A DNA stretch of 64,000 bases from positions 9,248 through 73,247 of the forward strand of contig JAFTIR010000017.1 in NCBI GenBank assembly GCA_017456765.1, in the 5' to 3' direction. The DNA is from Clostridia bacterium (GTDB taxonomy: Bacteria; Bacillota; Clostridia; Oscillospirales; CAG-382). Both the position numbers and the translations under genes were made by a program. Within the stretch, counting starts at the first letter, position 1. Every line of letters starts with the position of its first letter. Below the pieces are notes generated by a model. The model made no database searches, was not told the origin of the DNA, and saw nothing but the letters and a program-made list of their open reading frames with translations. This document shows, piece after piece, positions 2,838 to 64,000 of this stretch.

Positions 2838-5800
2838 ATGAGAAATTTATTAGACCTTACCTTTACAAGTCCCAACGGAATTGTAGAAAAGAAAAACGGC
2901 TCGCAGAGTCTTATTGCCAAAAGACCGCCTATCGGTGAAAAATTCAGTCCCCCTTACTCCATATTCAAATTCTTTATGGAAAACATCGGCGAGCTTGAAG
3001 AATATGTTGTTATCGAATACAACTGCTTTGGTATAAACCGTACTCCAAGTCGCTTCAAAGGACCTTTCATTACACTCAAAAAGGGAGAAGAAGATGTTCC
3101 GCTTTTCCGCTTTGACGACTTGACAATCGACGGAAACACACACTCAATAATTGTAAAAGCACCCGAAGGAAGCTTCACAAGTATGGATCTTTCATTCTAC
3201 TGTGACAAGGTACTTGAAGCACACCTTACAATTACAAAGCTCTATACCTGCAAAAAGTCTGAGCTTCCCGTTTCCTGCGAAAAGGGCATGAATGTTCCTT
3301 CAAAGAACTTTACTCCCGTTGACATTTCAGATAAATTTGACCTTGAATATGTCTTTGACGATTTTGACAGCCACAATGATTCAGGTCTTTTCTTCGACAA
3401 GGAAAATGTGACTCTCTATGGTGTTCCCTTTAATGTAAAGACAAGCGGAAAGAATCTGGTTGCAGCACCTCCCGCACCCGCAGAAAACGACGATATTATC
3501 GACAATTTCGGCAAGATGTGCAAGAGAAGAATCTGTCAGGCAATAAGCCGTGACGGCGAAACTGTTATTGACATAAACAAGAAAGCAAGCGAAATTTATT
3601 TTATTCTCACACTTTCGGGCAAAAGGTGGCTCAGAGTCAAATACGGCTCCGACCCCACAATTCTCGGTAGTGCCACATGCGACATCAGCGAGCCTTTGAA
3701 GATCGTTGACGTTGAATACTTTATGGCTGAAGTTGTTTACAAGGATGGAAGACATGACACTCATCTTCCTCTGAACCTCTGCACAGGCAGACACGGAATT
3801 GCAGGTGACATCAGCGTTTACGGTGTTCCCTGTGACGGTGAGGTTGAAAAGCTTATCATTCACAACAGATACCTTGACGGCGATGTAAACCTTGCAGCAG
3901 TAACGGTAAACGAGACAGACGAAAGACTCTATCCCGAAATGCTTATTCCCGAAAAGGATGAAAAGATTCAGAGAGTTATTGACAACGCACAGAAAGTATC
4001 TCTTGAAAACAACATTCTTACCTTAAAGAATGGCGCACTTTATATGAGCCTTGACATTTCCAAGGGTCTGAAGCTTCTTGAAATGACAAACGCATATGCT
4101 CCCGACATGAAGGTCAAGAAGGATACTATCCTCAAGACAAGAACAGCTGATGGCATAATTGACGATGTATTTGAGCTTGCAAATGCTTCTGTTATCGGAA
4201 ATTCGGCATACATTACATACAAATACGAGGGAACAGCCTTTGCTATTTCCGCTTTCCTTGAGGGCAAAGACAATGTAAAGTGGAATCTCTCAATTACAAA
4301 CAACGGCAGCGAAGAATTCAGAAAGGGTATCATCTTCCCCGAAATCCTTGTGGACTACGGCTCCTTCGCTGAAAACTGGTACTTCCTCCCTGCATATCAG
4401 AACATCGACAGCAACGAAACCTTCTATATGTACGAAGAATCGGCTCCCTCCTTCCCCATGCAGTTTATGGACACATATTCTCCTGCAATGCAGGGCGGTT
4501 TGTGTATAGCAACCGAAGAGAGAGAGCTTATTACAAGAAAGTACTCTCTTAACAAGAACGATGATGGTATCGACTTCTATGTTGAATATCCCATTATCTA
4601 CGGCGACATCGCTCCCGATGCCTCCTTTACAGCATCTCCCTGCGTAATTACTTGCCACGACGGCAACTGGAAGAGTGCATACAACCTTTACAAGACATGG
4701 ATTGATTCCTGGTATGCCCCCTACAAGTGTCAGGACAAGCAGTGGTACAGAGAATGCTTCTGGCTCCTTGCCGACATTACAGACTTCTTTGAAACAACAG
4801 ATATGCTCAACGATGACATGAGAAAACACACTGTATGGTACAACGAGGAAACCAAGACCTTTAATTACAGAAAGATTCTCGAATATCAGAAGGCTATAAC
4901 CGGAGTATATCCCGACATTCTTCACATGTGGAAGTGGAACTTCATGCTCCGCAAAAGAGCTGACGGTTCACTCGGCTCGGGCAACTGCTGGGGTAACTAC
5001 AACACGGAAGACTACGACAAGCTCGGCGGTAAAGAGGCTCTGAGAAATGCGCTTCACGACATCCGTGACAACATGGGCATTCAGGTTTCCCTCTACATGC
5101 ACCCGACGCTTCTTTCCAACTGCTATCCTCACCACGAAAAGTTCTACGAATCAAGCATGGTTAAGCACGAATCAGGTGGAAGAATCGGTCTTGCAGGCGA
5201 CTCCTTCAGAATGTGCCATGCTGAAGAGTCCTGGCGTGACTTCTCTGCTAACATGTATCCGAGAGTTTACAAGGACCTTGGTATTCCCCTTCTCTATGTT
5301 GACGAGTTCTCCCTTAGAATCGGAAACCGTTGTTACGCAGACAATCACGGTCACCACTGTCCGTCAAATCTTCTCAAAACAGACCGCGACTACATTGCAA
5401 AGCTCAAGGAAACCGTACCCGAAGAGGTTGTTCTTTACGGTGAATATGTGGCAGCCGACGTCAACGCAAGATACATTGACTGTAACATTTCCTACTATAT
5501 TCTTGACTCTATCATTGACATGATTGAAACAATGAAGAGAGCAAATGACGGTGACGACAGACTAAGTCGTGTATTCCTTCACACCTACCGTTTCGCATTC
5601 CCCAAGATTGTTCAGCTCATTCTCCCCATGGCAATGAGAAACATCTCATGGCATCCTCAGAAGTTCTTGTTCTTCAATGCAGAAGCTATCTACGACTCCT
5701 TCTGGGACTGCGAAGAATCACGTGGTCAGGACTTTACGGTTCATGCATTCAAGCTCAAGAAGAAGTATGCTGACTGCTACACAAGTGACTGTCCCGAAAC

Positions 5801-6056
5801 AATGATTGAAACAGAAAGCCCTGCTATCTGTATGAACAAGTTCCCCTCTAAGACATCTGACAGAGTTGTTTACAACATCTACAACAGAGCTTACTCCACA
5901 TTCCGTGGTGTTGCACTCAAGGTTCCTCACAAGGAAGGTGCAAAATACTACGACGCTTGGAACGAAAAGGAACTTTCCTACAAGGTAGTTGACGGCATGG
6001 CTGAGCTCTATCTTGAAATCGGCGCTCAGGAAATGGGCTGTATTGTTATTGAATAA
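2838..6056 (+). CDS. Large cytoplasmic protein of unknown function, tandem paralogue 2 (1072 aa, full length)
   Basis: AGGAGG RBS 8 nt upstream of the ATG. No signal peptide. The C-terminal ~830 aa are collinear with the first gene. Conserved acidic and His-rich motifs (YVDEFSLRIGNRCYAD.HGHH, FRMCHAEE) suggest an enzyme. A glycosidase-like fold is only a guess. Confidence 0.85.
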   Translation: MRNLLDLTFTSPNGIVEKKNGSQSLIAKRPPIGEKFSPPYSIFKFFMENIGELEEYVVIEYNCFGINRTPSRFKGPFITLKKGEEDVPLFRFDDLTIDGNTHSIIVKAPEGSFTSMDLSFYCDKVLEAHLTITKLYTCKKSELPVSCEKGMNVPSKNFTPVDISDKFDLEYVFDDFDSHNDSGLFFDKENVTLYGVPFNVKTSGKNLVAAPPAPAENDDIIDNFGKMCKRRICQAISRDGETVIDINKKASEIYFILTLSGKRWLRVKYGSDPTILGSATCDISEPLKIVDVEYFMAEVVYKDGRHDTHLPLNLCTGRHGIAGDISVYGVPCDGEVEKLIIHNRYLDGDVNLAAVTVNETDERLYPEMLIPEKDEKIQRVIDNAQKVSLENNILTLKNGALYMSLDISKGLKLLEMTNAYAPDMKVKKDTILKTRTADGIIDDVFELANASVIGNSAYITYKYEGTAFAISAFLEGKDNVKWNLSITNNGSEEFRKGIIFPEILVDYGSFAENWYFLPAYQNIDSNETFYMYEESAPSFPMQFMDTYSPAMQGGLCIATEERELITRKYSLNKNDDGIDFYVEYPIIYGDIAPDASFTASPCVITCHDGNWKSAYNLYKTWIDSWYAPYKCQDKQWYRECFWLLADITDFFETTDMLNDDMRKHTVWYNEETKTFNYRKILEYQKAITGVYPDILHMWKWNFMLRKRADGSLGSGNCWGNYNTEDYDKLGGKEALRNALHDIRDNMGIQVSLYMHPTLLSNCYPHHEKFYESSMVKHESGGRIGLAGDSFRMCHAEESWRDFSANMYPRVYKDLGIPLLYVDEFSLRIGNRCYADNHGHHCPSNLLKTDRDYIAKLKETVPEEVVLYGEYVAADVNARYIDCNISYYILDSIIDMIETMKRANDGDDRLSRVFLHTYRFAFPKIVQLILPMAMRNISWHPQKFLFFNAEAIYDSFWDCEESRGQDFTVHAFKLKKKYADCYTSDCPETMIETESPAICMNKFPSKTSDRVVYNIYNRAYSTFRGVALKVPHKEGAKYYDAWNEKELSYKVVDGMAELYLEIGAQEMGCIVIE

Positions 6057-6084
6057 CTACCCCTATTGGAAAACTAAATACTAT

Positions 6085-6114
6085 GCCCCGACCTTCCGGT
6101 CGGGGCTTGTTTTT
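6085..6114 (+). terminator. Rho-independent terminator of paralogue 2
   Basis: GCCCCGACC-TTCC-GGTCGGGGC followed by TTGTTTTT. The stem is the same as at 2505 and 6593. Confidence 0.75.
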
Positions 6115-6119
6115 AGGGG

Positions 6120-6588
6120 ATTCCGCCATCTGCGGATGGCGTTTTCCGTCACTTTTGACTCAGCAAAAGTAACCAAAACTGCCCGCTCCAAAGAGCCGCG
6201 GGGGCTCCTATTATCTACACAAGGAAAGAGAAAACTTATATTAAACCCTCTCTACCCATGTAAATTTTGCCGCTTCGCGGATGGTGTATATATACTGCGT
6301 AACCGTAAGGTTTTCTATCACTGAGTGAACTAAACCTAAGTGTCGCACAAACGCAAAATGTAAGTGGTAAGCCGCCACGGCGAAGGAGAGAAGTCAGCGC
6401 AGGTTTGGTGGCAGTCAGTTTGCTTATGTATATGTATATGCAGATTTTGACAACAGCGTAGGAGTTTTTTGTTGCAATTCAGCATGTCAAAATCTGACAG
6501 TTTAGAGAAATATTCAACCAAACCGAGCCATCTCTCCTTTTGAGTGGAGAACTTTTGGTACTTTTGTTTCGGGACAAAAGTACAAAGC
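6120..6588. repeat. Family A element, copy A2. The arms are recognisable but the core is divergent and larger.
   Basis: Left arm: ATTCCGCCATCTGCGGATGGCGTTTTCCGTCACTTTTGACTCAGCAAAAGTAACCAAAACTGCCCGCTC. Right arm: GAGTGGAGAACTTTTGGTACTTTTGTTTCGGGACAAAAGTAC. The interior carries other palindromes, for example CAGATTTTGACA..TGTCAAAATCTG at 6441-6496. Confidence 0.7.
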
Positions 6589-6614
6589 CAAAGCCCCGAC
6601 CTTTCGGTCGGGGC
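6580..6614 (-). terminator. Terminator hairpin downstream of the oxidoreductase gene
   Basis: GCCCCGACC-TTTC-GGTCGGGGC, 12 nt after the stop at 6626. On the minus strand it is followed by CTTTGGCTTTGT. Confidence 0.55.
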
Positions 6615-6625
6615 TTATCTTATAT

Positions 6626-7681
6626 TCAGTTATTATTATCGTCAAAATCCACGGTCTGTCCAAGCCTTGCCGACTCGAATGCCGCCATCATAACCTTCAT
6701 GACACGGCGCATCTGCGAATGTGTAACGAGCTGAGCCTGAGTTCCGTCAACAGCCTTTACAAAATTCCTGTAATAATCGTGAACATCACTTTCAGGGCGT
6801 TCGATTTCATATGTTTTTGTTGTGGCATCGGTTCTCGGTGCCATTGTCTTTGTAAGTCCTGCCGCAGTAACAACAGGCACAACATTACTCTCATGCATAT
6901 TGGTGCATTTTACAACCTTTGCTTTTTCGGTCCAGTCGTATATTATTGCCGAGCCCTCGGTAGCTCTCATATAGAAACGGGGCATATTTATAAAGTTATA
7001 TGTACCTACCTCAACAAACGCCTTTTGTCCGCCATCAAACATCATTGTGAGCTTTATTCCGTCGTCAACCTCGGTGTTTGTAATATTATCAAATTCGCAG
7101 TAAATCTTTGTTAGCTTTCCGTCCATAATCTGAAGAAGCTGGTCAATAAGATGCACGCCCCAGTCAAGAAGCATACCTCCGCCGTGTTCCTTTTTGCCTC
7201 TCCAGTCGCCGGGAATACCGCGTGAACCGTGAATTCTGCTTTCTATGTTTATAAGCTGTCCTATTTCTCCGCTTTCCTTAATCTGCTTCATGGCAAGAAA
7301 ATCAACATCAAAGCGTCTGTTCTGGTGAACAGAGAAAATCTTACCGCATCTTTTTGCAGTATCTATCATCTCGTCAAGTTCACAAAGATTCATCGCAACA
7401 GGCTTTTCGCATATTACATTCTTGCCAGCCTCAAGGGCTCTGATTACAACTTCTTTATGAGAATCATTCGGAATTGCAACTGTTATTATATCAACCCTTT
7501 TATCCGAGAGCACAGACTCAAATCTGTCATATGCAAATATTCCCTTTTCTCTCGCGGCTTCATTTCTCTCTTCCTTAATATCGTAAACACCCAAAAGGTT
7601 TACAACATCACTCTTCTGTGCGTGATTTACATGCCACGAGCCCATTCCGCCGTAGCCTACCACAACAAGATTCTTTTTCAT
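6626..7681 (-). CDS. Gfo/Idh/MocA family NAD(P)-dependent oxidoreductase
   Basis: N-terminal Rossmann motif VVVGYGGMGSWH, EKP motif (VICEKPVA), 351 aa, and an AAGGAGG RBS. Confidence 0.85.
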   Translation of the reverse strand: MKKNLVVVGYGGMGSWHVNHAQKSDVVNLLGVYDIKEERNEAAREKGIFAYDRFESVLSDKRVDIITVAIPNDSHKEVVIRALEAGKNVICEKPVAMNLCELDEMIDTAKRCGKIFSVHQNRRFDVDFLAMKQIKESGEIGQLINIESRIHGSRGIPGDWRGKKEHGGGMLLDWGVHLIDQLLQIMDGKLTKIYCEFDNITNTEVDDGIKLTMMFDGGQKAFVEVGTYNFINMPRFYMRATEGSAIIYDWTEKAKVVKCTNMHESNVVPVVTAAGLTKTMAPRTDATTKTYEIERPESDVHDYYRNFVKAVDGTQAQLVTHSQMRRVMKVMMAAFESARLGQTVDFDDNNN

Positions 7682-13687: not shown

Positions 13688-14125
13688 ATGGCAACCACAA
13701 TAACAGTAATTGGTATTTTGTTGATAGTTATGGCGGTATTCCTTGTAATATCCGTTCTTATGCAAAGCAGTAAGGATCACAGACTCGGCGGCTCTATTGC
13801 AGGCGGTGCTGAAACATTCTTCGGTAAGACAAAGGGCAAGAGCCTGGACGCAATGTTCAACAAGCTCACAACAGTTGTTGCAATCATCTTTGTTGTTCTT
13901 GTAATCGTTCTTTACGTTATTCAGCCTGAACCCGAGCGTATTCAGTATAACAACCCCGGCGTTGTTTCCGTAGAAGATGATGCTGCAAGCGATGCAAACC
14001 TTGAAGCTGAAGCACCCGAGGCTGACGTTGAAGCTCCCGAAGCAGAAACCGAAGCAGAAGCTGAGGTTGAAGCTGAAGCAGAAGCTGAGGCTCCTGCAGA
14101 GGACGAGGTTGAAGCAGCTGAATAA
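13688..14125 (+). CDS. secG: Preprotein translocase subunit SecG with a long acidic C-terminal tail
   Basis: Two TM helices flank the LGGSIAGGAETFFG motif typical of SecG. The last ~55 aa are low-complexity (EAEAPEADVEAPEAETEAEAEVEAEAEAEAPAEDEVEAAE). Confidence 0.85.
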   Translation: MATTITVIGILLIVMAVFLVISVLMQSSKDHRLGGSIAGGAETFFGKTKGKSLDAMFNKLTTVVAIIFVVLVIVLYVIQPEPERIQYNNPGVVSVEDDAASDANLEAEAPEADVEAPEAETEAEAEVEAEAEAEAPAEDEVEAAE

Positions 14126-27142: not shown

Positions 27143-27225
27143 TACTTTTCGATAACTTTGCCCGAAAAATGACAGGAGATTTTGTGCTTTTGGTACTTTT
27201 TTCGAATGAAAAGAACATAAACAAA
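27143..27225. repeat. Family A fragment (two degenerate H1-type hairpins)
   Basis: TTACTTTTCG..CGAAAAATGACAG then CTTTTGGTACTTTTTTCGAATGAAAAGAACA. It aligns to the double H1 module at the right end of copy A3 (44648-44745). Confidence 0.55.
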
Positions 27226-27258
27226 AAAAAGAGAACGGCTAACTTAATAGTCGTTCTC
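27219..27258 (-). terminator. Rho-independent terminator of typA, located beyond the B1 repeat
   Basis: Stem GAGAACG/CGTTCTC. On the minus strand it is followed by a run of eight T then GTTT. Confidence 0.6.
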
Positions 27259-27279
27259 TAAAGTCATATGTTTTTTGAT

Positions 27280-27387
27280 GAGTTTGGGCGGTGGCGTTTA
27301 TGCCGACCAAACGGGGTTTGTTAAGCGACAATAAAGGTTTGTTTGTGACAAACATATGCCGTGAATATGCTGTCGGGCATTCCCGAC
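27280..27387 (-). repeat. Family B element, copy B1 (no heptamer array)
   Basis: Minus-strand reading: GTCGGGAATGCCCGAC-AGCATATTCACG...GTCGCTTAACAAACCCCGTTTGGTCGGCATAAACGCCACCGCCCAAACTCAT. Its first base is the G of the typA TAG stop codon. Confidence 0.8.
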
Positions 27388-29207
27388 TATTTGAGCTTTG
27401 CGTAAGCCTTAGCTCTGTTCACATTATTGAGAATCTGCTTACGAAGTCTTATGGACTTAGGTGTAACCTCGATAAGCTCATCGTCATTGATAAACTCAAT
27501 TGCCTCTTCAAGGGAGTGAATCTTGGGAGGCACAAGTCTGAGAGCTTCGTCCGCACCCGTCGAGCGCACTGCTGTCATGTGCTTCTTCTTGCAAGGGTTA
27601 ATTACAATATCGTCAGTCTTTGCATTTTCTCCGACAATCTGTCCCTCATAAATATCCTGTGCAGGAACAACAAACATCTGTCCTCTGTCCTGTACATTAT
27701 AGATACCGTAGGAGGTCGTCTTACCCGTTTCATACGCAACGAGAGAGCCTGTCGTTCTCTTTGTAATCTCTCCCCTGTAGGGTGTGTATTCAAGGAAAAG
27801 GGAGTTTATAATACCCTCGCCTCTTGTATCGGTGAGAAATTCGTTTCTGTAACCGAAAAGTCCGCGTGTCGGAATATGGAACACAACGTGCATTCTGTCA
27901 CCTCTGGGTGACATATCAATGAGCTCGCCCTTTCTTGCGCCCAGCTTTTCAATTACCGAGCCCATATATTCCTGCGGAACATCACAGGAAACTTCTTCCA
28001 TAGGCTCCATTTTCACTCCGTCGATTTCCTTGTAGAGTACCTTTGGAGCGCTTACCTGAAATTCATATCCCTCTCTTCTCATTGTTTCAATAAGAATTGA
28101 AAGGTGCATTTCTCCACGTCCCATAACTCTAAAGGCTTCGGTAGAGTCCGAGTCCTCAACCCTTAAGGAAACGTCCTTCAAAAGCTCGCGGTAAAGTCTT
28201 GCACGAAGGTGGCGGGACGTACAGAATTTGCCCTCTGTACCCGCAAAGGGTGAGTCGTTAACAGAGAAGGTCATCTCTAAGGTTGGCTCTGAAATCTTAC
28301 AGAAATCAAGCGGCTCGGGTGTGGTTGTATCGCAGAGAGTATCGCCGATTGTAACCTCTTCAATACCCGAAAGGCATACAATTTCTCCCGCCTTTGCTTC
28401 ATCGACATTTACTTTCTTAAGACCGTCGATTGTAAGAAGATTTACAATCTTTGCATTATAATTTGCATGAATACCGTGGTGGTGGCAGACGGTTACGTTC
28501 ATGCCTTTCTTTACAGTACCTCTTTCAATTCTGCCTGTTGCAATACGTCCTATAAAATTATCGTAGTCGATGTTTGAAACGAGCATTTGAGCAGGTCCTT
28601 CTTCGTCAACATCGGGACCCGGAACATGATTTATAATCTGCTCAAAAAGCGGAATAAGGTTTTCTTCCTGAATATCGGGAGAAAGGGAGGCTGTGCCATT
28701 ACGTCCAGAGCAGAACACAACGGGGCTGTCAAGCTGTTCATCTGTTGCATCAAGGGCAATAAGAAGCTCTAAAACTTCATCAACAACCTCAACAGGTCTT
28801 GCGCCGGGTCTGTCAACCTTATTAACAACAATTATAACCTTATGACCAAGCTCCAGTGCTTTCTGAAGAACAAAGCGTGTCTGGGGCATTGTACCCTCAA
28901 ATGCGTCAACAAGCAAAAGCACGCCGTCAACCATTTTGAGTATTCTTTCAACCTCACCGCCGAAATCCGCGTGACCGGGGGTGTCAACGACATTGATTTT
29001 TATGTCATTATATATAATTGAAGTGTTTTTTGCGAGAATGGTAATACCTCTTTCACGCTCTAAGTCATTTGAGTCCATTACTCTGTCGTCGACAACTTCA
29101 TTCTGTCGGAAAGTTCCCGACTGCTTGAGCATCTCATCAACAAGGGTTGTCTTGCCATGGTCAACATGGGCTACGATTGCTACGTTTCTTATATCATTTC
29201 TTATCAT
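27387..29207 (-). CDS. typA: Translational GTPase TypA/BipA
   Basis: AHVDHGKTT, DTPGHADF and NKVD G-motifs, an EF-G-like domain order, and 606 aa. Confidence 0.95.
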   Translation of the reverse strand: MIRNDIRNVAIVAHVDHGKTTLVDEMLKQSGTFRQNEVVDDRVMDSNDLERERGITILAKNTSIIYNDIKINVVDTPGHADFGGEVERILKMVDGVLLLVDAFEGTMPQTRFVLQKALELGHKVIIVVNKVDRPGARPVEVVDEVLELLIALDATDEQLDSPVVFCSGRNGTASLSPDIQEENLIPLFEQIINHVPGPDVDEEGPAQMLVSNIDYDNFIGRIATGRIERGTVKKGMNVTVCHHHGIHANYNAKIVNLLTIDGLKKVNVDEAKAGEIVCLSGIEEVTIGDTLCDTTTPEPLDFCKISEPTLEMTFSVNDSPFAGTEGKFCTSRHLRARLYRELLKDVSLRVEDSDSTEAFRVMGRGEMHLSILIETMRREGYEFQVSAPKVLYKEIDGVKMEPMEEVSCDVPQEYMGSVIEKLGARKGELIDMSPRGDRMHVVFHIPTRGLFGYRNEFLTDTRGEGIINSLFLEYTPYRGEITKRTTGSLVAYETGKTTSYGIYNVQDRGQMFVVPAQDIYEGQIVGENAKTDDIVINPCKKKHMTAVRSTGADEALRLVPPKIHSLEEAIEFINDDELIEVTPKSIRLRKQILNNVNRAKAYAKLK

Positions 29208-29307
29208 TAAAATTCACCCGATTTTTCAAATTCATTTTTTCCAATTTTACATTTTATCACAAAGCAATGAAAAAATCAACACATTACGACAAAATTTTCA
29301 GCGGCGA

Positions 29308-29436
29308 GTCGCCGCCGACTATCCACGACGCACGTTTGCGGTAAACAAACGTTTATTTTCGCTTAACAAACAACGTTTGGGCAGCATAAACACCACCGCC
29401 CAAACGCATTCCTAATTCCTAATTACTAATTCCTCA
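29308..29436 (+). repeat. Family B element, copy B2, with 4 heptamer units
   Basis: GTCGCCGCCGAC...TTCGCTTAACAAACAACGTTTGGGCAGCATAAACACCACCGCCCAAACGCAT followed by TTCCTAA TTCCTAA TTACTAA TTCCTCA. It ends 10 nt before the cysK stop codon. Confidence 0.8.
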
Positions 29437-29446
29437 TTTGAAAAAT

Positions 29447-30379
29447 CTACAATTCTTCAAAAAGTTCAGTTGACAAATATCTGTCACCAATATCAGGCAG
29501 AAGCACAACCACCGTCTTGCCCTCATTCTCTTTTCGTTTTGCCACAAGAGTTGCCGCATGAAGTGCCGCACCCGACGAAATGCCGACAAGGATTCCCTCA
29601 CTCTTGGCAAGAGTTCTTGCCGCCGCATAAGCATCATCGTGATGAACAGGAATTATCTCATCATAAATCTTTGTGTCAAGTATTTCGGGGACAAAGCCTG
29701 CACCTATACCCTGAAGTTTATGTGAGCCTGCCCTGCCCTGTGAAAGATAGGGACTGTCTGACGGCTCAACCGCAACAATCTTTACATTCGGATTCTTTTC
29801 CCTAAGGTAACGTCCGACACCTGTAATTGTACCGCCCGTACCGACGCCGGCAACGAATATGTCCACCTTTCCGTCAGTGTCTTCCCAAATTTCGGGACCC
29901 GTTGTGAGATAGTGGGCATTGGGGTTTTCGGGGTTTGTGAACTGACCTGCAAGGATGCTGTCGGGTATCTCGGAAAGAAGCTCGTTTGCCCTCTCAATTG
30001 CGCCGTTCATTCCCTTTTTGCCATCGGTAAGCACAACAGAGGCGCCAAATGCACAAATGAGCTTTCTTCTTTCTATGCTCATGGTTTCGGGCATGGTTAG
30101 AATTACTCTATAACCCTTTGCGGCGGCAACCGCGGCAAGACCGATGCCTGTGTTTCCGCTTGTAGGCTCAATAATTGTAGCGCCCTTCTTCAATTTTCCC
30201 GACTTTTCAGCCGCTTCAATCATCTGTCTTGCAACCCTGTCCTTTGCACTTCCTGCAGGGTTTTTACCCTCAAGTTTACAGAGAATTTGAGCAAGAGCAT
30301 CTTTTTCCTTTGCATAATTTGAAACGCGAACCAGTGGAGTTTTTCCGACAAGCTCGGCAACATTTGAATACACTTTCAT
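29447..30379 (-). CDS. cysK: Cysteine synthase A (O-acetylserine sulfhydrylase)
   Basis: PLP-lysine motif NPAGSAKDR, the GTGGT loop, and 310 aa. Confidence 0.92.
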
Positions 30380-35053: not shown

Positions 35054-35076
35054 TTGTTTTCCTTTCGTAAAAAATG

Positions 35077-35190
35077 AGGAATCAGGAATTAGGAATTAGG
35101 AATGAGTTTGGTCGACCTCGTTATGCCGACCAAACGGTGTTGGTTAAGCGACACTAAAAGCTTGTTTATGTCAAAGATTCCCCGTGAAAT
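35077..35190 (-). repeat. Family B element, copy B3, with 4 heptamer units, inserted between scfA and scfB
   Basis: Plus strand: AGGAATC AGGAATT AGGAATT AGGAATG then AGTTTGGTCGACCTCGTTATGCCGACCAAACGGTGTTGGTTAAGCGAC...CCCCGTGAAATC. This is the reverse complement of the family B consensus. Confidence 0.8.
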
Positions 35191-35203
35191 CTTTTCTCTT
35201 TGA

Positions 35204-35263
35204 TTACTTTCTCTTTTCAGCAAAGAGAAAGTAATAAGAAATGCCGCAAGGACTGCGGCATTT
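35204..35263 (-). terminator. Two adjacent hairpins downstream of scfA (attenuator or partial terminator)
   Basis: AATGCCGCA-GTCCT-TGCGGCATT followed by TCTTATT, read on the minus strand, lies 19 nt after the scfA stop. It is followed by a perfect 13-bp stem, TTACTTTCTCTTT/AAAGAGAAAGTAA. Confidence 0.55.
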
Positions 35264-35281: not shown

Positions 35282-35431
35282 TTACTTGCTTTCCTTGTTT
35301 TCGCACTTCTGATTTGCGATGCCGCAGCTTGTCTTGCAAGCGGACTGGCAGGATGTCTGGCATTCGCCGCAACCGCCGTTCTTAGCGGATTCACAAAGAT
35401 TTCTTGTTTCAAGTGTCTTAATTCTCTTCAT
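35282..35431 (-). CDS. scfA: SCIFF (six-cysteine-in-forty-five) ranthipeptide precursor, 49 aa
   Basis: Hand translation: MKRIKTLETRNLCESAKNGGCGECQTSCQSACKTSCGIANQKCENKESK. It contains the hallmark GGCGECQTSCQSACKTSC core. A GGGGG RBS lies 10 nt upstream. It is too short for the ORF track. Confidence 0.9.
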   Translation of the reverse strand: MKRIKTLETRNLCESAKNGGCGECQTSCQSACKTSCGIANQKCENKESK

Positions 35432-44181: not shown

Positions 44182-44210
44182 ATTGTAGCACATTTATTGT
44201 GATTTGTAAA
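44182..44210 (-). promoter_or_regulatory. Sigma-A-type promoter for topB
   Basis: On the minus strand: TTTACA, 17 nt, TACAAT. The -35 element is 8 nt from the heptamer array. Confidence 0.45.
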
Positions 44211-44218
44211 GAGGGAAA

Positions 44219-44267
44219 GGGAATTAGGAATTAGGAATTAGGAATTAGGAATTGGGAATTGGGAATT
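44219..44267 (+). repeat. Heptamer tandem array (RGGAATT)x7 with no family B core
   Basis: GGGAATT, AGGAATT x4, GGGAATT x2, preceded by a degenerate AGGGAAA unit. Confidence 0.9.
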
Positions 44268-44314
44268 AGAAGTACAAGTCGAGGCGGATAAAGTGTGAGA
44301 TGCATTGTTTAGAG

Positions 44315-44752
44315 ATCCCGCACTCTGCGAAGTGCGTTTTCCGTCACTTTTGTCGCAGCAAAAGTGACCAAAACTGCCCACTCATGTGTCGGGACTTTTA
44401 GATGTCCCGACACGAGCCGTGGAGGCTCTTTTTTATACTCAACACAGAATTTGAGAAAAGTTTTAGATGTGTTCTCACTACTCCACGTGTATTTGCCTGC
44501 CTTTGGCAGGCTATAGCCTCGCAAAGCGAGGCAAACCACATCTATTAGTGGAAAGAGAAAAAAATCTTTAAAAAAATTTCTCCGAAGATAAAAGAGCCTT
44601 CGCGGCTCGGGCAAAATCTTGAAAAATTTTGCCCATGAGCGACACCTTTTGGTTACTTTTCGGTGACGAAAAGTGACAGAAAACGCGGCTCTCGGAGCGG
44701 AGAACTTTTGGTTCTTTTGTTTCGGGACAAAAGAACAGAAAACCCGCCTCTT
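44315..44752 (+). repeat. Family A element, copy A3 (full length, with an extra H1 module at the right end)
   Basis: Left arm 44315-44430: ATCCCGCACTCTGCGAAGTGCG-TTTTCC-GTCACTTTTG..CAAAAGTGAC...CCCACTCATG-TGTCGGGAC..GTCCCGACA-CGAGCCGTGGAGGCTC. Centre 44492-44536: TTTGCCTGCCTTTGGCAGGCTATAGCCTCGCAAAGCGAGGCAAAC. Right arm 44594-44752 is the mirror image. Confidence 0.85.
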
Positions 44753-44830
44753 CCATATATTGATTGATGACAAATGCAAGTATTTGATGTAAAATATACA
44801 CAGATATTCTGAAATTAACGGAGAAGAATC

Positions 44831-53100: not shown

Positions 53101-53768
53101 TGTATGCACATAAGCACGCTCTGCGTCTGTGCATCGTCTTTATCGACATAGTGAGCGTCGTTTGTGGCAACGAGGGGAATGTTCAGCTTCTTTGAAAGCT
53201 TTATAAGTTCGTCGTTTACAATCTGCTGCTCGGGTATTCCGTGACGTTGGAGTTCAAAATAATAGTCCTCGCCGAACAGTGATTTCATTTTCAGGGCGTG
53301 ATTTACCGCATCATCAATATTAGCATCAATTATTCTCTGGGGAACGTAGCCTGCAAGGCAAGCGGAAAGAGCAACAAGTCCCTCGTGATACTCCTCAAGA
53401 AGCGACATATCAATTCTCGGTTTTGAGTAGAAGCCCTCGGTAAAGGCGAGTGACACCATCTTTATAAGGTTTTTATAGCCTGTTTCGTTTTTGCACAGAA
53501 GCACAAGGTGATTATATCTTGAGTCAAGAGATTTATCCCTGCCATGGCGAGAATTGGGTGCAACATAAACCTCGCATCCGATTATCGGCTTTACTCCATT
53601 ATCACGGCACGCCTTATAAAATTCAACTGCTCCGTACATAACGCCATGGTCAGTAACAGCAAGTGCGGGCATACCGCATTCCTTAGCCTTTTTTACGACA
53701 TCCTTTATTCTGCAGGCGCCGTCAAGAAGGCTATATTCTGTATGAACATGCAAATGGACAAAAGACAT
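50145..53768 (-). CDS. dnaE: DNA polymerase III alpha subunit (DnaE type)
   Basis: N-terminal PHP domain FVHLHVHTEYSLLDG, the polymerase core GSGAGSLAAY, PDFDVDF, and a C-terminal OB fold. 1207 aa. Confidence 0.95.
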   Translation of the reverse strand: MSFVHLHVHTEYSLLDGACRIKDVVKKAKECGMPALAVTDHGVMYGAVEFYKACRDNGVKPIIGCEVYVAPNSRHGRDKSLDSRYNHLVLLCKNETGYKNLIKMVSLAFTEGFYSKPRIDMSLLEEYHEGLVALSACLAGYVPQRIIDANIDDAVNHALKMKSLFGEDYYFELQRHGIPEQQIVNDELIKLSKKLNIPLVATNDAHYVDKDDAQTQSVLMCIQTQTTLADGRHKGFEKDEFYLKTAEEMKTLFADVPEAIGNTVKIADKCNFNFEFDKLFLPAFYPPDGLTSKAYLEKLCYEGLEKRLSKYENADVQVYNDRLKYELSVVNAMGYDEYYLIVRDFIAYAKESGIPVGPGRGSGAGSLAAYCLGITDVDPLLHGLLFERFLNPERVSMPDFDVDFCYFRRQEVIDYVAEKYGKNHVAQIVTFGTLAAKAAIRDVGRVLGMPYSDVDRVAKLIPRALNITIEKALEESAELRELCREDFKVNSLINIAKKIEGMPRNTSTHAAGVVITDKPVSEYVPLSMNGDCVVTQYTMNEIADLGLLKIDFLGLRYLTVIYEAAESADISVSDIPLDDEKTYRLLAAGDTDGVFQLESGGMRSLLVRMVPKNIEDITIAISLYRPGPMDSIPKFLANRKDASNVKYADPSLEEILSVTNGCIVYQEQVMQIFRKLAGYSFGRADIVRRAMSKKKKDVMEREREYFIYGKKDENGNAEVMGAVNNGISEEAAKEIYEDMATFAQYAFNKSHAACYAYLAYYSAFLKCHYPKHYMASLLSSVINSTDKVMEYIGTCKKMGVEVERPDINTSSLMFSASEKGIVFGLMAIKNVGEGFVKEIVKKRQGSGYATLEDFLSKISDTEINKRMVESLIKAGALDSLGRKRSQLLAVYSDAIDALQRRNHKNVEGQFDMFSAVDTSSEDTGSLNISYPDIPELSHYEKLSMEKEMTGLYISGHPLEKYAPTAKSLRCDKLSDINNAVADGDRSKYRDGKTVTLLGLVSSKKEKLTKSDTRMAFVNLEDETGEIELIVFPNVYEASASRLYPGSVIGVVGEISVKESQNDEGNEQKEEPKILVRNIIDVKEGEIPEAVRASTNASQTDDTKKVKVNLSAFMGGAARQAQIGIEKYTPKPLSDLYLKVPSENSKQFERVKSVLEIYNYGRQDVYIYFEDTKKLVRALEIHALVTDTMLEILSRILKKENVKLKEKK

Positions 53769-53781
53769 ACTATCACCTCCT

Positions 53782-54005
53782 GCGGGGGAGTCCCCGCTGA
53801 CAATTCACGTTATATTCTCGTGCAAAGCAAGCCCTCGTAGTCGCTTAACGAACCCCGTTTGTCGGGAAAGCCCGACAGCAATTCACGTTATATTCTCGTG
53901 CAAAGCAAGCCCTCGTAGTCGCTTAACGAATACCATTTGGTCGGCATATACGCCACCAACTAAACTCATTCCTAATTCCTAATTCCTAATTCCTAATTCC
54001 TAATT
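53782..54005 (+). repeat. Family B element, copy B4: a tandem one-and-a-half-mer with 5 heptamer units
   Basis: A 50-nt block (ATTCACGTTATATTCTCGTGCAAAGCAAGCCCTCGTAGTCGCTTAACGAA) occurs identically at 53804 and 53881. It is followed by TTTGGTCGGCATATACGCCACC..AAACTCAT and (TTCCTAA)x5. The element fills the whiA-dnaE gap. Confidence 0.85.
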
Positions 54006-54010
54006 TTATC

Positions 54011-54724
54011 TTATTCTTCCCTGAATGCAATTTTTATTATCTTTTCAAGTCTATGATTTACGCAGGACTTTGTAATTGGCGGCTCATGGATAGAAGCAAG
54101 GTCCGTGAGGGACAAATCGGGGTTATCACGCCGAAGCGACGCCGTATAAAGCAGTTTTTCGGGAAGATTTTCAAAGCGGTCATCCCTCTCAAGCTCCTTT
54201 ATTGCTTCAAGCTGTCTGCCCGTGGCATTTGCACTCTTCTGCAGGTTTGCCATTTCGCAGTTATTTACTCTGTTTACATTATTGCGTATATTCTTTTCAA
54301 TCTGGGTGTTGACAAGGTCAAAGGCACACTTTTGTGCGCCGAGAAGAGAAAGTACATGGAAAATGGTATCTCCGTCCTTAAAATAGACTACATACTTTCC
54401 TCTGCGGCGTGACACCTTTGCTTCAAGTCCCATTTCACGAAGAAAAATGCACATTTCGTCCGCATTCATCTCGTTTAGCATTTTCATTTCAAGGTGACCT
54501 CTCTTATCGGGTGCATTTACCGAGCCGCATTTGAGGAAAATTTCGCGCAGAAACGCACCTCTGCATTCGTCGCAAGCAAAGCAGCTCTTATCTATAAGTG
54601 CATTTTCAAAGAGGAATTTATCCGCATTTTCCCTCGCCCTTTTGCAGCACTTTTTTTCTTTTATCTGCCCCAGTGCTTCCTTCACTTCACCGGTAAAGGT
54701 CAGTTTTTCTTTATTATTCATCAT
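54011..54724 (-). CDS. whiA: DNA-binding protein WhiA, short form (237 aa)
   Basis: LAGLIDADG-like core FLREIFLKCGSVNAPDKRGHLEM. C-terminal HTH LRRDNPDLSLTDLASIHEPPITKSCVNHRLEKI. The N-terminal ~80 aa of canonical WhiA are missing. Confidence 0.8.
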   Translation of the reverse strand: MMNNKEKLTFTGEVKEALGQIKEKKCCKRARENADKFLFENALIDKSCFACDECRGAFLREIFLKCGSVNAPDKRGHLEMKMLNEMNADEMCIFLREMGLEAKVSRRRGKYVVYFKDGDTIFHVLSLLGAQKCAFDLVNTQIEKNIRNNVNRVNNCEMANLQKSANATGRQLEAIKELERDDRFENLPEKLLYTASLRRDNPDLSLTDLASIHEPPITKSCVNHRLEKIIKIAFREE

Positions 54725-55608: not shown

Positions 55609-55707
55609 ACAGTTCTCCTTATACATTTATTCATTATAAGTATAGCATGGATTTGTGAATTTGTGAAGTGGTTTTATGTTTTTTATTGCAAAATTTAGTC
55701 TACAAGA

Positions 55708-56020
55708 ATTCCGCACTCTGCGGAGGGCGTTTTCCGTCACTTTTGACACAGCAAAAGTAACCAAAACTGCCCACTCTGCAAAAAAATTACCGCTACGCTC
55801 AGATTTTTTGCGAGCCGTGGCGGCTCTTTTGACCTCAACGAAATATTAGAAAAAGCTCCGATTTTATTCTCACTATTAAGGTGTGGTTCGCCTCGCCTTG
55901 CGAGGCAATAGCCTGCCAAAGGCAGGCAAACCATGTGGAGTAGTGAGAGAAAAATATAAGTTTTCTCCAATTCTGCGTAGAAAACAAAAAAGAGTCGCCC
56001 TCCGCAGAGGGCGAAACATT
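55708..56020 (-). repeat. Family A element, copy A4 (centre inverted relative to A3/A5/A6; one arm shortened)
   Basis: ATTCCGCACTCTGCGGAGGGCG-TTTTCC-GTCACTTTTG..CAAAAGTAAC...CCCACTCT-GCAAAAAA..TTTTTTGC-GAGCCGTGGCGGCTC. Centre 55886-55931: GGTTCGCCTCGCCTTGCGAGGCAATAGCCTGCCAAAGGCAGGCAAAC. It ends in the CGCCCTC..GAGGGCG hairpin. Confidence 0.8.
55981..56013 (-). terminator. Rho-independent terminator of mgtE, formed by the terminal hairpin of repeat A4
   Basis: On the minus strand: CGCCCTC-TGCG-GAGGGCG followed by ACTCTTTTTTGTTTT, 26 nt after the mgtE stop codon. Confidence 0.7.
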
Positions 56021-60400: not shown

Positions 60401-60799
60401 ATTTCGCTTCTGCGGAAGCGACTTTCTTTTGTCCCGCGACAAAAGAAAGCAAAAACGCTCCACTCATGTGTCGAAAACTCCGCTTCGCTCCGTAACATTC
60501 GACACGAGCCGTGGCGGCTCTTTTTTATACTCTACTCAAAGTTAAGATAAGTTTTGGTTTTTTTCTCACTACTTCATATAGTTTGCCTGCCTGCGGCAGG
60601 CTATAGCCTCGCAGTGCGAGGCGAATCACGCTTATTAGCGTGAAGAGAACTTAAACTTTTGGAAATATTATGTTGAGCTTGAGCCTCCACGGCTCGCAAA
60701 AAATCTGAGCGAAGCGGTAATTTTTTGCAGAGTGGGCGCTTTGGGTTACTTTTGGCGAGTCAAAAGTAACGTAAAACGCAGTCAGCAGACTGCGGAACT
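60401..60799 (+). repeat. Family A element, copy A5 (full length)
   Basis: The arms carry TCGCTTCTGCGGAAGCGA, CTTTCTTTTG..CAAAAGAAAG, CCACTCATG-TGTCGAA..TTCGACA-CGAGCCGTGGCGGCTC. Centre 60581-60626. The mirror arm ends ...GTTACTTTTG..CAAAAGTAAC-GTAAAAC-GCAGTC..GACTGCGGAAC. It ends 1-2 nt from the ylbF-like stop codon. Confidence 0.85.
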
Positions 60800-60800
60800 C

Positions 60801-63552: not shown

Positions 63553-63605
63553 ATTTTTTCTCTTTTCTATAATTGTTTATACGATTTAACTTACACATAA
63601 GAAGT

Positions 63606-64000
63606 ATTCCGCGGCTTGCGAGCCGCGTTTTCCGTTCTTTTGTCCCGAAACAAAAGAACCAAAAATTCTCCACTCATGTTTCGTGACTTTTTGAGGTCAC
63701 GAAACGGGGCGTGGTGCCCCTTTTCAACCCTCTACGCAGGAAAGCATAAACTTATATTTTTTCACTCTCTACTCCACCTGTGTTTGCCTGCCCTTGGCAG
63801 GCTATAGCCTCGCAAAGCGAGGCAAACCACGCTTGTTAGTGGAAAGACACTCGGAGGTTTTGGAATCATTTCGTTGAGGGCTAAGAAGAGCCTCCGCGGC
63901 TCGTTCGGGACCTCAAAAAGTCCCGAACATGAGCGGTCGCTTTGGGTTACTTTTCGCGAGTGAAAAGTAACGGAAAACGCACTCCCAAGTCGTGCGGAAC
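63606..64000 (+). repeat. Family A element, copy A6 (apparently complete, ending at the window edge)
   Basis: ATTCCGCGGCTTGCGAGCCGCG-TTTTCC-GTTCTTTTG..CAAAAGAAC...CCACTCATG-TTTCGTGAC..GTCACGAAA-CGGGGCGTGGTGCCCC. Centre 63782-63827. Mirror arm: GAGCCTCCGCGGCTC-GTTCGGGAC..GTCCCGAAC-ATGAGCGG...GTTACTTTTC..GAAAAGTAAC-GGAAAAC-GCACTC..GTGCGGAAC. Confidence 0.85.

What the first reader, a model, noticed from the sequence alone, without database searches (positions are those of the whole stretch)
53782..54005. Second repeat family (family B): hairpin-bounded ~110-nt element ending in a variable (AGGAATT)n array
Four copies (27280-27387, 29308-29436, 35077-35190, 53782-54005) fit one consensus. It reads GTCGGG-N4-CCCGAC, AGCA.ATTCACG, a variable ~30 nt, GTCGCTTAAC.AA, and a 31-nt hairpin GTTTGGTCGG-CATAAACGCCA-CCGCCCAAAC. 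It then ends in CAT followed by TCCTAAT-type heptamers present 0, 4, 4 and 5 times.

The copies occur in both orientations relative to the neighbouring genes. A unique structured core fused to a copy-number-variable heptamer microsatellite is unusual for bacterial intergenic repeats. I cannot assign it to a known family.

Each heptamer carries a GGA motif on one strand, so arrays transcribed in that sense (B2, B4) would present 4-5 evenly spaced A(N)GGA-like sites. Whether they titrate an RNA-binding protein such as CsrA is pure speculation.
Basis: partly seen in the sequence, partly recalled or inferred. Interest (0 to 1): 0.68.

Follow-up and report, generated by a model that had tools for sequence, protein, structure and literature searches.

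The report
Modular hairpin repeat beside heptamer microsatellite
This is a real but fairly ordinary lineage-specific intergenic repeat built from GC-rich hairpin modules (like REP/BIME or BOX elements), and the (AGGAATT)n array next to it is a separate, common kind of heptanucleotide microsatellite, not part of the element.

Summary
Five family-B modules lie at four loci (27280-27387, 29301-29407, 35104-35193, 53785-53967), and (AGGAATT)n arrays abut three of them.

The element is modular:
- an optional 31-nt hairpin H1, whose stem covaries while its loop is conserved
- one to three cores (GTTAAGCGAC, a small variable hairpin, CGTGAAT)
- one or more tail units, each CGTGAAT plus a 6-7-bp GC hairpin found in at least 8 complementary stem versions

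Copies occur in both orientations next to unrelated housekeeping genes, often 0-8 nt from a stop codon. They are present or absent at orthologous sites in close relatives. I found them only in a few gut Oscillospiraceae MAGs. There is no Rfam or literature match.

The heptamer array is not intrinsic to B. A fifth array (44220-44269) sits beside a different repeat, and most B copies in relatives have no array. Array depth in the source metagenomes is about 50-1,000 times the flanking depth. Exact (AGGAATT)3 occurs in many phyla, but so does a scrambled control heptamer.

Best reading: a new REP/BIME/BOX-like dispersed palindromic repeat family lying next to an ordinary heptanucleotide microsatellite. 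The CsrA idea has no support. Interest is modest.

The parts
27280..27387 (+). Family B copy 1, with no heptamer array. H1 hairpin is at 27282-27312, GTTAAGCGAC at 27320-27329, CGTGAAT at 27360-27366, and the terminal hairpin GTCGGGCATTCCCGAC at 27372-27387. The terminal hairpin overlaps the stop codon (27387-27389) of the minus-strand typA/bipA gene, so the element is antisense to that gene and lies upstream of its terminator at about 27225-27260.
29301..29407 (-). Family B copy 2, in the same sense as the flanking genes. H1 is at 29375-29405, GTTAAGCGA at 29359-29367 (written on the element strand), and the terminal hairpin at 29300-29319. It lies between the stop of a PALP (cysK-like) gene and a promoter-like site for typA at 29279-29251.
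29408..29438 (-). Heptamer array of 4 units (AGGAATT, AGTAATT, AGGAATT, AGGAATG). It starts 8 nt after the stop codon of the PALP gene (29447-29449).
35073..35103 (+). Heptamer array of 4 units (AGGAATC, AGGAATT x2, AGGAATG). It lies 20 nt upstream of, and antisense to, the start codon of the radical-SAM SCIFF maturase gene (start at 35053).
35104..35193 (+). Family B copy 3. H1 is at 35106-35135, GTTAAGCGAC at 35143-35152 and CGTGAAA at 35183-35189. There is no terminal GC hairpin. It lies between the SCIFF peptide gene (35282-35431, minus strand) and its maturase gene, antisense to both.
53862..53967 (-). Family B copy 4a. H1 is at 53935-53965, GTTAAGCGAC at 53918-53927, CGTGAAT at 53881-53887, and the hairpin GTCGGGCTTTCCCGAC at 53861-53876.
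53782..53861 (-). Family B copy 4b, a second core plus tail without H1. GTTAAGCGAC is at 53840-53849, CGTGAAT at 53803-53809, and the hairpin GCGGGGACTCCCCCGC at 53782-53797. The hairpin abuts the Shine-Dalgarno sequence and start codon of dnaE (start at 53768).
53968..54005 (-). Heptamer array of (AGGAATT)5 plus a terminal AGGAATG. It starts 5 nt after the whiA stop codon (54011-54013).
44220..44269 (+). Fifth heptamer array, 7 units (AGGAATT and GGGAATT). It is not joined to family B. On its 3' side is a family-A hairpin repeat. On its 5' side is a promoter-like site (44210-44182, minus strand) for the topoisomerase gene that starts at 44150.

Best explanation
Family B is a lineage-specific, non-coding, dispersed palindromic repeat of the REP/BIME/BOX kind. 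Its basic unit is a short conserved motif (CCGTGAAT) followed after 4-5 nt by a 6-7-bp GC hairpin. A core segment (GTTAAGCGAC plus a small variable hairpin) can be added in front of that unit, and an optional 31-nt hairpin H1 in front of the core. The modules are duplicated, lost and recombined independently, which explains composites such as 53782-53967.

Copies settle in the short spacers after stop codons or between genes of an operon, in either orientation. Inferred, not shown: when transcribed as part of the neighbouring mRNA, their stable hairpins act as REP, SMAG and BOX elements do, as barriers to 3'-5' exonucleases or as weak attenuators. How the element spreads is unknown. Candidates are a structure-recognising enzyme acting in trans, such as a Y1/RAYT-like transposase, or recombination between copies.

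The (AGGAATT)n array is a separate feature. It is an ordinary heptanucleotide microsatellite that grows and shrinks by strand slippage and that, like such arrays in many phyla, sits directly downstream of a gene end. B and the array lie side by side because both occupy that same narrow niche. The identical junction (AGGAAT|GAGTTTGG) at three loci suggests one of three things: the H1 end inserts after an AAT that the array offers repeatedly, an array-plus-H1 composite was copied as a unit, or the array grew from a single AGGAAT unit at the element's 5' end.
For: **Shown**
- Modules occur independently. The related MAG loci hold ten core-only copies without H1 at E below 1e-4, and the window holds one more (copy 4b). 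There are also tandem cores (L001) and five tandem tail units (L002).
- H1 has 11 predicted pairs, 4 of them with compensatory double changes. Four stem versions share a conserved loop, TnGGATTTATG.
- The tail hairpin occurs in at least 8 complementary stem versions behind a conserved CGTGAAT. Family-A repeats in the window share the same CGTGnnT-plus-GC-hairpin design.
- Orientation relative to genes is 2:2 in the window. Flanking genes are unrelated: typA, a PALP enzyme, SCIFF and its maturase, whiA and dnaE, GH20, an ECF S component, DUF4432, FtsX, and a TPP-dependent enzyme (acetolactate-synthase-like). No transposase was found.
- In 6 of 12 full-length copies the tail end lies 0-26 nt from a convergent gene's stop codon.
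- Presence or absence differs at orthologous sites. The whiA-dnaE spacer is 242 nt with the array and B in the window, 65 nt and empty in L158, filled with other repeats in L157, and holds an H1-like hairpin alone in L159.
- A contig from a relative that is about 97% identical over the adjoining 71 nt of typA replaces 27259-27396, which includes copy B1, with 38 unrelated nucleotides.
- There is no Rfam match.
- The array is independent of B: a fifth array sits beside family A, most copies in relatives have no array, and array depth is 620-6,070 against 4-18 in the flanks, with heterogeneous flanking sequence.
- A scrambled heptamer is as widespread as AGGAATT.
- In 119 loci from many phyla, 66 of 92 co-oriented upstream genes end less than 30 nt from the array's 5' side, against 19 of 76 convergent genes on the 3' side. 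The arrays of copies 2 and 4 follow this pattern, at 8 and 5 nt.

**From the literature**
- REP, BIME, SMAG and RAYT properties: PMC3184786.
- The BOX A-B(n)-C architecture: PMC3049150.
- Heptamers as the commonest long simple-sequence repeats, and TAACTGA arrays: PMC4679880.
Against: - No transposase or RAYT gene was seen, but only 64 kb and a few 8-kb pieces were available.
- There are no terminal inverted repeats or target-site duplications, and the 'empty' sites are replacements rather than precise excisions. Mobility is therefore inferred, not shown.
- Copy number per genome is unknown. I found the family in only 3 MAGs plus the window organism.
- The conserved single-stranded linkers (GGGGTTYGTTAAGCGACACCGA and CCGTGAAT) are longer than REP needs and could reflect a specific RNA or protein interaction.
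- Full-length copies fold 2-11 kcal/mol better on the array-first strand in 11 of 12 cases. That strand is G+T-rich, so the test is confounded.
- The exact shared junction with the array at three loci is not explained by co-location alone.
- No RNA data bear on the proposed mRNA-level effect.
Confidence: 0.6

Rival explanations
1. B is a structured cis-acting RNA: three hairpins joined by conserved single-stranded linkers. It would work in 3' UTRs or between cistrons through a specific protein or RNA partner, for example as a processing, antitermination or stability signal. On this view it is a selected RNA, not a selfish or neutral DNA repeat.
For: - Stems covary while the loop and linkers stay conserved.
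- Full-length copies fold better on one strand.
- The few imperfect H1 stems carry G-U pairs on the strand that the flanking genes would transcribe: copies B2 and B4a in sense, B3 in antisense (read).
- In L001, B cores run directly into a tRNA-Lys gene and so must be part of its precursor.
- Orthologous DUF4432 genes in two species both carry a copy 1-2 nt after the stop codon.
Against: - The element lies in both orientations relative to the transcribed strand, 2:2 in the window and mixed in the MAGs.
- Flanking genes are unrelated.
- Presence or absence differs at orthologous sites in close relatives.
- Modules are duplicated and truncated freely.
- There is no Rfam match.
- The strand asymmetry in folding is confounded by G+T richness.
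Confidence: 0.2
2. B is a non-autonomous element mobilised as single-stranded DNA by an IS200/IS605-type or RAYT-type Y1 transposase. The enzyme would recognise the hairpins together with the adjacent conserved motif and insert 3' of a short target ending in AAT. That would make (AGGAATT)n arrays insertion hot spots.
For: - The layout of a conserved motif followed by a covarying hairpin parallels GTAG plus REP (PMC3184786).
- There are no terminal inverted repeats and no target-site duplication, as expected for Y1 elements.
- The base triplet before GAGTTTGG is AAT or GAT in 7 of 13 copies. That count includes all three array junctions and the H1-like hairpin directly after the whiA stop in L159.
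- Presence or absence differs between relatives.
Against: - No Y1 transposase gene was seen in any DNA held here.
- No precise empty site has been found.
- Clusters are tandem direct repeats, not the inverted pairs typical of REP-RAYT systems.
- The target preference rests on 13 copies.
Confidence: 0.15
3. One reading: transcribed (AGGAAUU)n arrays act as multi-site sponges or landing pads for an RNA-binding protein. Candidates are CsrA through the GGA motifs, or a HutP-like protein, because UAG-N4 repeats with a period of 7 (the HutP link is from memory).
For: - The arrays of copies B2 and B4 lie in the mRNA sense, 5-8 nt after stop codons.
- Across phyla such arrays prefer the sense orientation directly after gene ends.
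- Contigs that contain the array are abundant in one metatranscriptome.
Against: - Three of the five arrays in the window are antisense to, or outside, the neighbouring transcript.
- An unrelated scrambled heptamer shows the same distribution and the same position bias, so the effect is not specific to GGA or UAG.
- Promoter-like sites lie outside the elements, and there is no CsrB/Rsm-type Rfam match.
- Whether the organism has CsrA or HutP is unknown.
Confidence: 0.04

Closest known systems
REP sequences, BIME clusters and SMAG (GTAG-REP) elements of Proteobacteria, with RAYT transposases (PMC3184786)
   Same: - Short GC-rich stem-loops preceded by a conserved short motif.
- Dispersed in intergenic regions, singly or in clusters mixed with other motifs.
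- Often directly downstream of genes, in either orientation.
- Stems covary.
- Expected effect on the stability of the upstream mRNA.
   Different: - The conserved motif is CCGTGAAT plus a 4-5-nt spacer, not GTAG.
- Clusters are tandem direct repeats, not alternating in orientation.
- The element carries extra modules: a roughly 45-nt core and the 31-nt H1 with a conserved loop.
- The host is a Firmicute (Oscillospiraceae).
- No RAYT gene has been identified.
BOX elements of Streptococcus pneumoniae, boxA-boxB(n)-boxC (PMC3049150)
   Same: - A modular composite repeat in a Firmicute with a variable number of tandem internal modules.
- Length differs between loci.
- Predicted stem-loops.
- Found in clusters with other repeat families.
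- Transcribed as untranslated parts of neighbouring mRNAs.
   Different: - There is no evident sequence relationship, though I made no alignment against BOX.
- BOX has terminal inverted repeats and target-site duplications; B has neither.
- The heptamer array lies outside B, not between two end modules.
Abundant genome-specific heptanucleotide arrays: TAACTGA in Beggiatoaceae, Cyanobacteria and Bacteroidetes (PMC4679880); heptamers as the commonest long simple-sequence repeats (Mrazek 2007, as cited there); cyanobacterial STRR repeats (from memory)
   Same: - One heptamer recurs as short tandem arrays at many intergenic loci of a genome.
- Unit number varies between loci.
- Arrays lie close to gene boundaries.
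- The unit contains stop codons.
- The same heptamer is seen in distant phyla.
   Different: - The unit here is AGGAATT, and none of the papers searched holds it.
- Here the arrays mostly follow stop codons or lie antisense upstream of start codons. In the Guaymas 'Maribeggiatoa' genome, TAACTGA arrays lie in sense orientation directly upstream of start codons.

Membership tests
REP/BIME (REP-RAYT system) | Short (21-65 bp) GC-rich imperfect palindrome able to form a stem-loop | tested here: met
   The tail unit CCGTGAAT-N4-5-hairpin is about 28-29 nt. Its 6-7-bp GC stems occur in at least 8 complementary versions. H1 has 11 pairs, 4 of them with compensatory changes.
REP/BIME (REP-RAYT system) | Conserved GTAG tetranucleotide 5' of the palindrome | tested here: not met
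   The motif in that position is C(C)GTGAAT followed by a 4-5-nt spacer. It is analogous in position, but the sequence is different.
REP/BIME (REP-RAYT system) | High copy number, dispersed in extragenic regions | tested here: inconclusive
   All copies are intergenic. There are 5 modules in 64 kb and several per 8-kb locus in relatives. No whole genome was available, and a pattern scan found only 3 MAGs and no true copy in JGI metagenomes.
REP/BIME (REP-RAYT system) | Clusters of units in alternating orientation (BIME) | tested here: not met
   Clusters are head-to-tail: 53782-53967, three cores in L001, five tails in L002.
REP/BIME (REP-RAYT system) | A RAYT (Y1 transposase) gene flanked by inverted units in the same genome | not testable with these tools
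   Only 64 kb and 8-kb fragments are held. The 18 flanking proteins scanned show no transposase domain.
MITE | Terminal inverted repeats and target-site duplications | tested here: not met
   The ends are GAGTTTGG... and ...CCCGAC or ...CCCCGC, which are not inverted repeats of each other. The flanks of 12 copies share no duplication.
BOX element (pneumococcal type) | Two fixed end modules (boxA, boxC) that form terminal inverted repeats, enclosing a variable tandem array of boxB | tested here: not met
   Variable tandem modules exist (core x1-3, tail x1-5), but no pair of terminal modules forms inverted repeats, and the heptamer array lies outside the element. Sequence similarity to BOX was not tested.
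Heptanucleotide simple-sequence repeat (LSSR, STRR or TAACTGA type) | Head-to-tail 7-nt units, intergenic, the same unit at many loci, and unit number varying between loci | tested here: met
   The window has five arrays of 4-7 units, all intergenic. Array depth in the source metagenomes is about 50-1,000 times the flanking depth, with many different flanks. The same array occurs in more than 119 stretches from many phyla.
Heptanucleotide simple-sequence repeat (LSSR, STRR or TAACTGA type) | Unit number polymorphic between strains (slippage) | not testable with these tools
   Logan contigs break at arrays longer than the assembler's word. The only other full assembly shown, L155, has a spacer of the same length, 242 nt. 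No raw-read runs were on offer.
CsrA-titrating sRNA (CsrB/RsmX-Z type) | An independently transcribed RNA with its own promoter and terminator that presents many GGA motifs on one fixed strand | tested here: not met
   No Rfam match. Only 2 of the 5 arrays are in the GGA sense relative to their genes. Promoter-like sites lie outside the elements and only weak terminator-like hits fall inside copy B2. Whether csrA is present is unknown.
Any curated structured RNA family (Rfam 15) | Score at or above the family's gathering threshold | tested here: not met
   There were no matches in the whole window at gathering thresholds. In 53700-54100 at E up to 10, only chance-level hits appeared, all far below gathering scores.

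The most novel reading that the evidence does not exclude
Heptamer arrays, including the two beside copies B2 and B4, are not neutral slippage products. They would be an RNA-level feature of gene ends shared across bacterial phyla. In 119 loci they lie in one orientation directly after, or overlapping, the stop codon of a co-oriented gene, and they carry stops in every frame. This could mean a function or a formation mechanism coupled to translation termination. The B hairpins next to them would then be part of a composite 3'-end or intercistronic signal and not a selfish repeat.
Probability: 0.1. Interest if true: 0.65.

Novelty: new member of a known kind. Interest (0 to 1): 0.3.

Why it matters
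Family B adds an undescribed dispersed-repeat family for an uncultured group of gut Oscillospiraceae. It is useful mainly in practice: for annotation and masking of intergenic regions, as a cause of contig breaks in MAG assemblies, and as a possible strain-typing marker.

Its design, a conserved short motif followed by a covarying GC hairpin and shared with the window's family A, hints at a REP-like system in Firmicutes, where such systems are poorly documented. Finding the enzyme that recognises it would be of moderate interest.

The wider point from the controls is a caution. The same heptamer array in many phyla is not evidence of a special function, because a scrambled heptamer behaves the same way. 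The strong bias of such arrays towards the position just after stop codons may deserve its own study.

Tried and rejected
1. **Known RNA family.** Rfam at gathering thresholds on the whole window and at E up to 10 on 53700-54100 gave nothing relevant.
2. **More copies in JGI metagenomes.** The pattern scan returned 23 hits, all in coding sequence or by chance; none is family B.
3. **'The same heptamer in many phyla means a special function or horizontal transfer.'** Rejected.
4. **An internal promoter or canonical terminator in B.** The only promoter-like sites lie outside the elements. There are weak terminator-like hits in copy B2 only, and counts are not above shuffled expectation.
5. **Strand of action from folding energies.** The array-first strand folds better in full-length copies, but that strand is G+T-rich and core-only copies show the opposite, so the test is inconclusive.
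6. **A transposase next to copies.** A Pfam scan of 18 flanking proteins, including a gene in L001 flanked by inverted B copies (a GH20 glycosidase), found none.
7. **Heptamer copy-number variation between strains.** Logan contigs break at the arrays and no raw-read runs were available.
8. **Literature search** for the heptamer 14-mers and the B motifs found only unrelated primer coincidences.
9. **Integron attC, dif, T-box and tRNA-like readings** were considered from the sequence. I dropped them because the defining motifs or arrangement are absent. This was a judgement from reading the sequence, not a formal test.

Full report
**What is in the sequence**

I describe the element on the strand where the array comes first. 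On that strand it reads:

- (AGGAATT)n, then GAG
- hairpin H1: GTTTGGTCGG, an 11-nt loop ending in TTATG, CCGACCAAAC
- GGGGTTYGTTAAGCGAC(ACCGA)
- about 25 variable nucleotides that usually form a small hairpin
- CCGTGAAT, a 4-5-nt spacer, and a 6-7-bp GC hairpin

The signal is far above chance. The junction pattern matches 5 times against 0.11 expected. An nhmmer profile built from 12 copies finds exactly five modules in the window, with E-values from 1e-18 to 4e-28. The heptamer doublet pattern matches 17 times against 2.4 expected.

- The copy at 53782-54005 is a composite. It has the array, H1 and one core plus tail, followed by a second core plus tail without H1.
- The copy at 35104 has no terminal GC hairpin.
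- There is a fifth array of 7 units at 44220-44269. It is not joined to family B and sits next to a different hairpin repeat, family A.

**Source organism**

The window matches gut-metagenome assemblies. Its WhiA protein is 80-82% identical to those of MAGs labelled Clostridia, Eubacteriales and Oscillospiraceae. The host is therefore an uncultured gut member of the Oscillospiraceae or a close relative.

**The element is modular and its hairpins are under structural constraint**

- A scan of 185,579 species genomes found true B copies in only three related MAGs, and a scan of JGI metagenomes found none.
- Within the 8-kb pieces of those MAGs, the profile finds many more copies. Most consist of core plus tail without H1.
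- L001 has three tandem cores running into a tRNA-Lys gene, and L002 has five tandem tail units.
- H1 has 11 predicted pairs, 4 of them with compensatory double changes. The stems are GTTTGGTCGG, GTTTGACTGC, GTTTGACCGC or GTTCGACCGC with matching partners, and the loop TnGGATTTATG stays constant.
- The tail hairpin occurs in at least eight complementary versions, always behind C(C)GTGAAT. They include GTCGGG/CCCGAC, GCGGGG/CCCCGC, GCGGCG/CGCCGC, GCGGTG/CACCGC, GCGGAG/CTCCGC and GCGCGG/CCGCGC.
- Family-A repeats in the window use the same design, CGTGnnT followed by a GC hairpin. The two families look like variants of one repeat system.

**Genomic context argues for a dispersed repeat, not a gene-specific regulator**

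The four loci in the window are:

| Copy | Position | Orientation relative to the flanking genes |
|---|---|---|
| B1 | after the typA/bipA stop codon | antisense |
| B2 | between a PALP-enzyme gene and the typA promoter | sense |
| B3 | between the SCIFF peptide gene and its radical-SAM maturase gene | antisense |
| B4 | between whiA and dnaE | sense |

In the MAGs the neighbouring genes encode a GH20 glycosidase, an ECF transporter S component, DUF4432, FtsX and a TPP-dependent enzyme (acetolactate-synthase-like). No transposase was seen. In 6 of 12 full-length copies the tail hairpin lies 0-26 nt from the stop codon of a convergent gene, and in four of those it lies within 0-2 nt. Promoter-like sites lie outside the elements, and only weak terminator-like hits fall inside copy B2.

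**Presence or absence differs between relatives**

The orthologous whiA-dnaE spacer differs between the window and three relatives:

| Source | Spacer length | Content |
|---|---|---|
| Window | 242 nt | array plus B |
| L158 (Eubacteriales MAG) | 65 nt | no repeats |
| L157 (RGIG8792) | about 175 nt | other hairpin repeats |
| L159 (SIG639) | about 140 nt | an H1-like hairpin directly after the whiA stop codon; no core, no array |

A metatranscriptome contig from a relative that is about 97% identical over the adjoining 71 nt of typA replaces 27259-27396, which includes copy B1, with 38 unrelated nucleotides. These differences are replacements, not clean excisions. I found no terminal inverted repeats and no target-site duplications.

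**The heptamer array is a separate feature**

- A fifth array lies beside family A.
- Of the nine other full-length copies in relatives, eight have no heptamers and one has a single AGGAAT unit.
- In the source metagenomes, contig depth over the array is 620-6,070 against 4-18 in the flanks. The flanking sequences are heterogeneous and do not resemble H1.
- Exact (AGGAATT)3 occurs in more than 119 stretches from Bacteroidota, Verrucomicrobiota, Acidobacteriota, Chloroflexota, Patescibacteria, Cyanobacteria, Campylobacterota, Spirochaetota and Firmicutes. It is often mixed with sister heptamers such as AGGAGTT, ACGAATT and AACAATT.
- This looked remarkable until I ran the control.
- That agrees with the literature. 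Heptanucleotide repeats are the commonest class of long simple-sequence repeats in prokaryotes, and one genome can carry well over a hundred arrays of a single heptamer, such as TAACTGA (PMC4679880).

**Why B and the arrays lie side by side**

I made a crude ORF-based survey of the 119 loci. Of 92 arrays with a co-oriented gene on their 5' side, 66 lie less than 30 nt from that gene's stop codon, and in 24 of these the stop codon is inside the array. Of 76 arrays with a convergent gene on their 3' side, only 19 lie that close. The control heptamer gives 56 of 88 against 6 of 59.

The arrays of copies B2 and B4 follow this rule, at 8 and 5 nt after stop codons. B copies also favour the first few nucleotides after a stop codon. 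Sharing this niche explains part of the association.

The identical junction, AGGAAT|GAGTTTGG, at three loci needs more than that. I see three options, and none is shown:

- B inserts after an AAT. AAT or GAT precedes GAGTTTGG in 7 of 13 copies.
- An array-plus-H1 composite was copied as a unit.
- The array grew from a single AGGAAT unit at the element's 5' end, as seen in the L009 copy.

**Mechanism**

The best-supported reading, at confidence 0.6, is a REP/BIME/BOX-like dispersed palindromic repeat family lying next to an ordinary slippage-prone heptanucleotide microsatellite. What is shown and what is inferred:

- Shown: modularity, stem covariation, both orientations, unrelated neighbouring genes, and presence/absence differences between relatives.
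- Inferred by analogy with REP, SMAG and BOX elements (PMC3184786, PMC3049150): the transcribed hairpins affect mRNA stability or read-through.
- Unknown: how the element spreads.

The rivals are a selected cis-acting RNA (0.2), mobilisation by a Y1 transposase with the arrays as target hot spots (0.15, a refinement of the main reading and not a true alternative), and a CsrA or HutP-type protein sponge (0.04).

The sponge idea is weakened by three results. Array orientation is mixed. An unrelated heptamer shows the same behaviour. No independent transcription unit or Rfam match exists.

**Limits**

- No complete genome of the organism was available.
- No RNA data exist from the organism itself.
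- No strain-level read data across the arrays were available, because Logan contigs break there.
- The folding comparison between strands is confounded by base composition.
- The stop-codon survey used simple ORF calls, not curated annotation.

**Verdict**

The feature is a new member of a known kind, and interest is about 0.3.

Noticed in passing
window 44270-44760, 55650-56000, 60420-60800, 63600-63985, 2496-2720, 6076-6620: Family-A mosaic repeats: strings of different GC hairpins such as GTCACTTTTG..CAAAAGTGAC, GCCTGCC..GGCAGGC, GCCTCGC..GCGAGGC and GAGCCGTGGAGGCTC. Several units have the same CGTGnnT-plus-GC-hairpin design as the family-B tail. Related MAG loci place A-like and B modules side by side.
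   Followed up: partly
L013-L131 and L160-L239 (loci from genome contigs): Across many phyla, heptamer arrays lie in one orientation directly after, or overlapping, the stop codon of a co-oriented gene. For AGGAATT, 66 of 92 arrays lie within 30 nt, against 19 of 76 on the other side. The scrambled control AGATGTA gives 56 of 88 against 6 of 59. The survey used crude ORF calls only.
   Followed up: partly
L044, L041, L127, L028, L030, L098: In other genomes an AGGAATT-type array is often followed by a short GC hairpin or a 20-75-nt centre and then the inverted array (AATTCCT)n. This forms long potential hairpins. The window has no such pair.
   Followed up: no
window 1-7100: A roughly 3.55-kb segment is present twice in tandem at 72-89% identity (1-300 and 3551-3850, 667-966 and 4217-4516, 1673-1972 and 5253-5552). 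These are probably paralogous genes. Each copy is followed by hairpin repeats.
   Followed up: no
window 44182-44269: The 7-unit array begins 10 nt upstream of the -35 hexamer of a good promoter-like site (TTTACA, 17 nt, TACAAT, with an upstream TG) for the topoisomerase gene. Changes in unit number could shift the sequence upstream of the promoter.
   Followed up: no
L001 1968-2304 (minus strand): H1 and three tandem B cores run directly into a tRNA-Lys(UUU) gene, with the tail hairpin abutting the tRNA's 5' end. There B must be transcribed as part of the tRNA leader.
   Followed up: no
window 27259-27396: A metatranscriptome contig from a relative about 97% identical over the adjoining 71 nt of typA carries 38 unrelated nucleotides in place of this 138-nt stretch. 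The stretch includes copy B1 and the last codons of typA, so the end of the gene differs where the element is present.
   Followed up: partly
window 35205-35235; L159 about 3310-3345; L009 about 3190-3215: Another recurring hairpin module, ACTTTCTCT..AGAGAAAGT, appears next to B copies and in the whiA-dnaE spacer of a relative. It points to a third repeat type in this clade.
   Followed up: no
window 14039-14092: A period-12 (and period-6) GAAGCTGAGGCA-type tandem repeat. I did not check whether it lies inside a coding region; if so it would encode a Glu/Ala-rich low-complexity segment.
   Followed up: no
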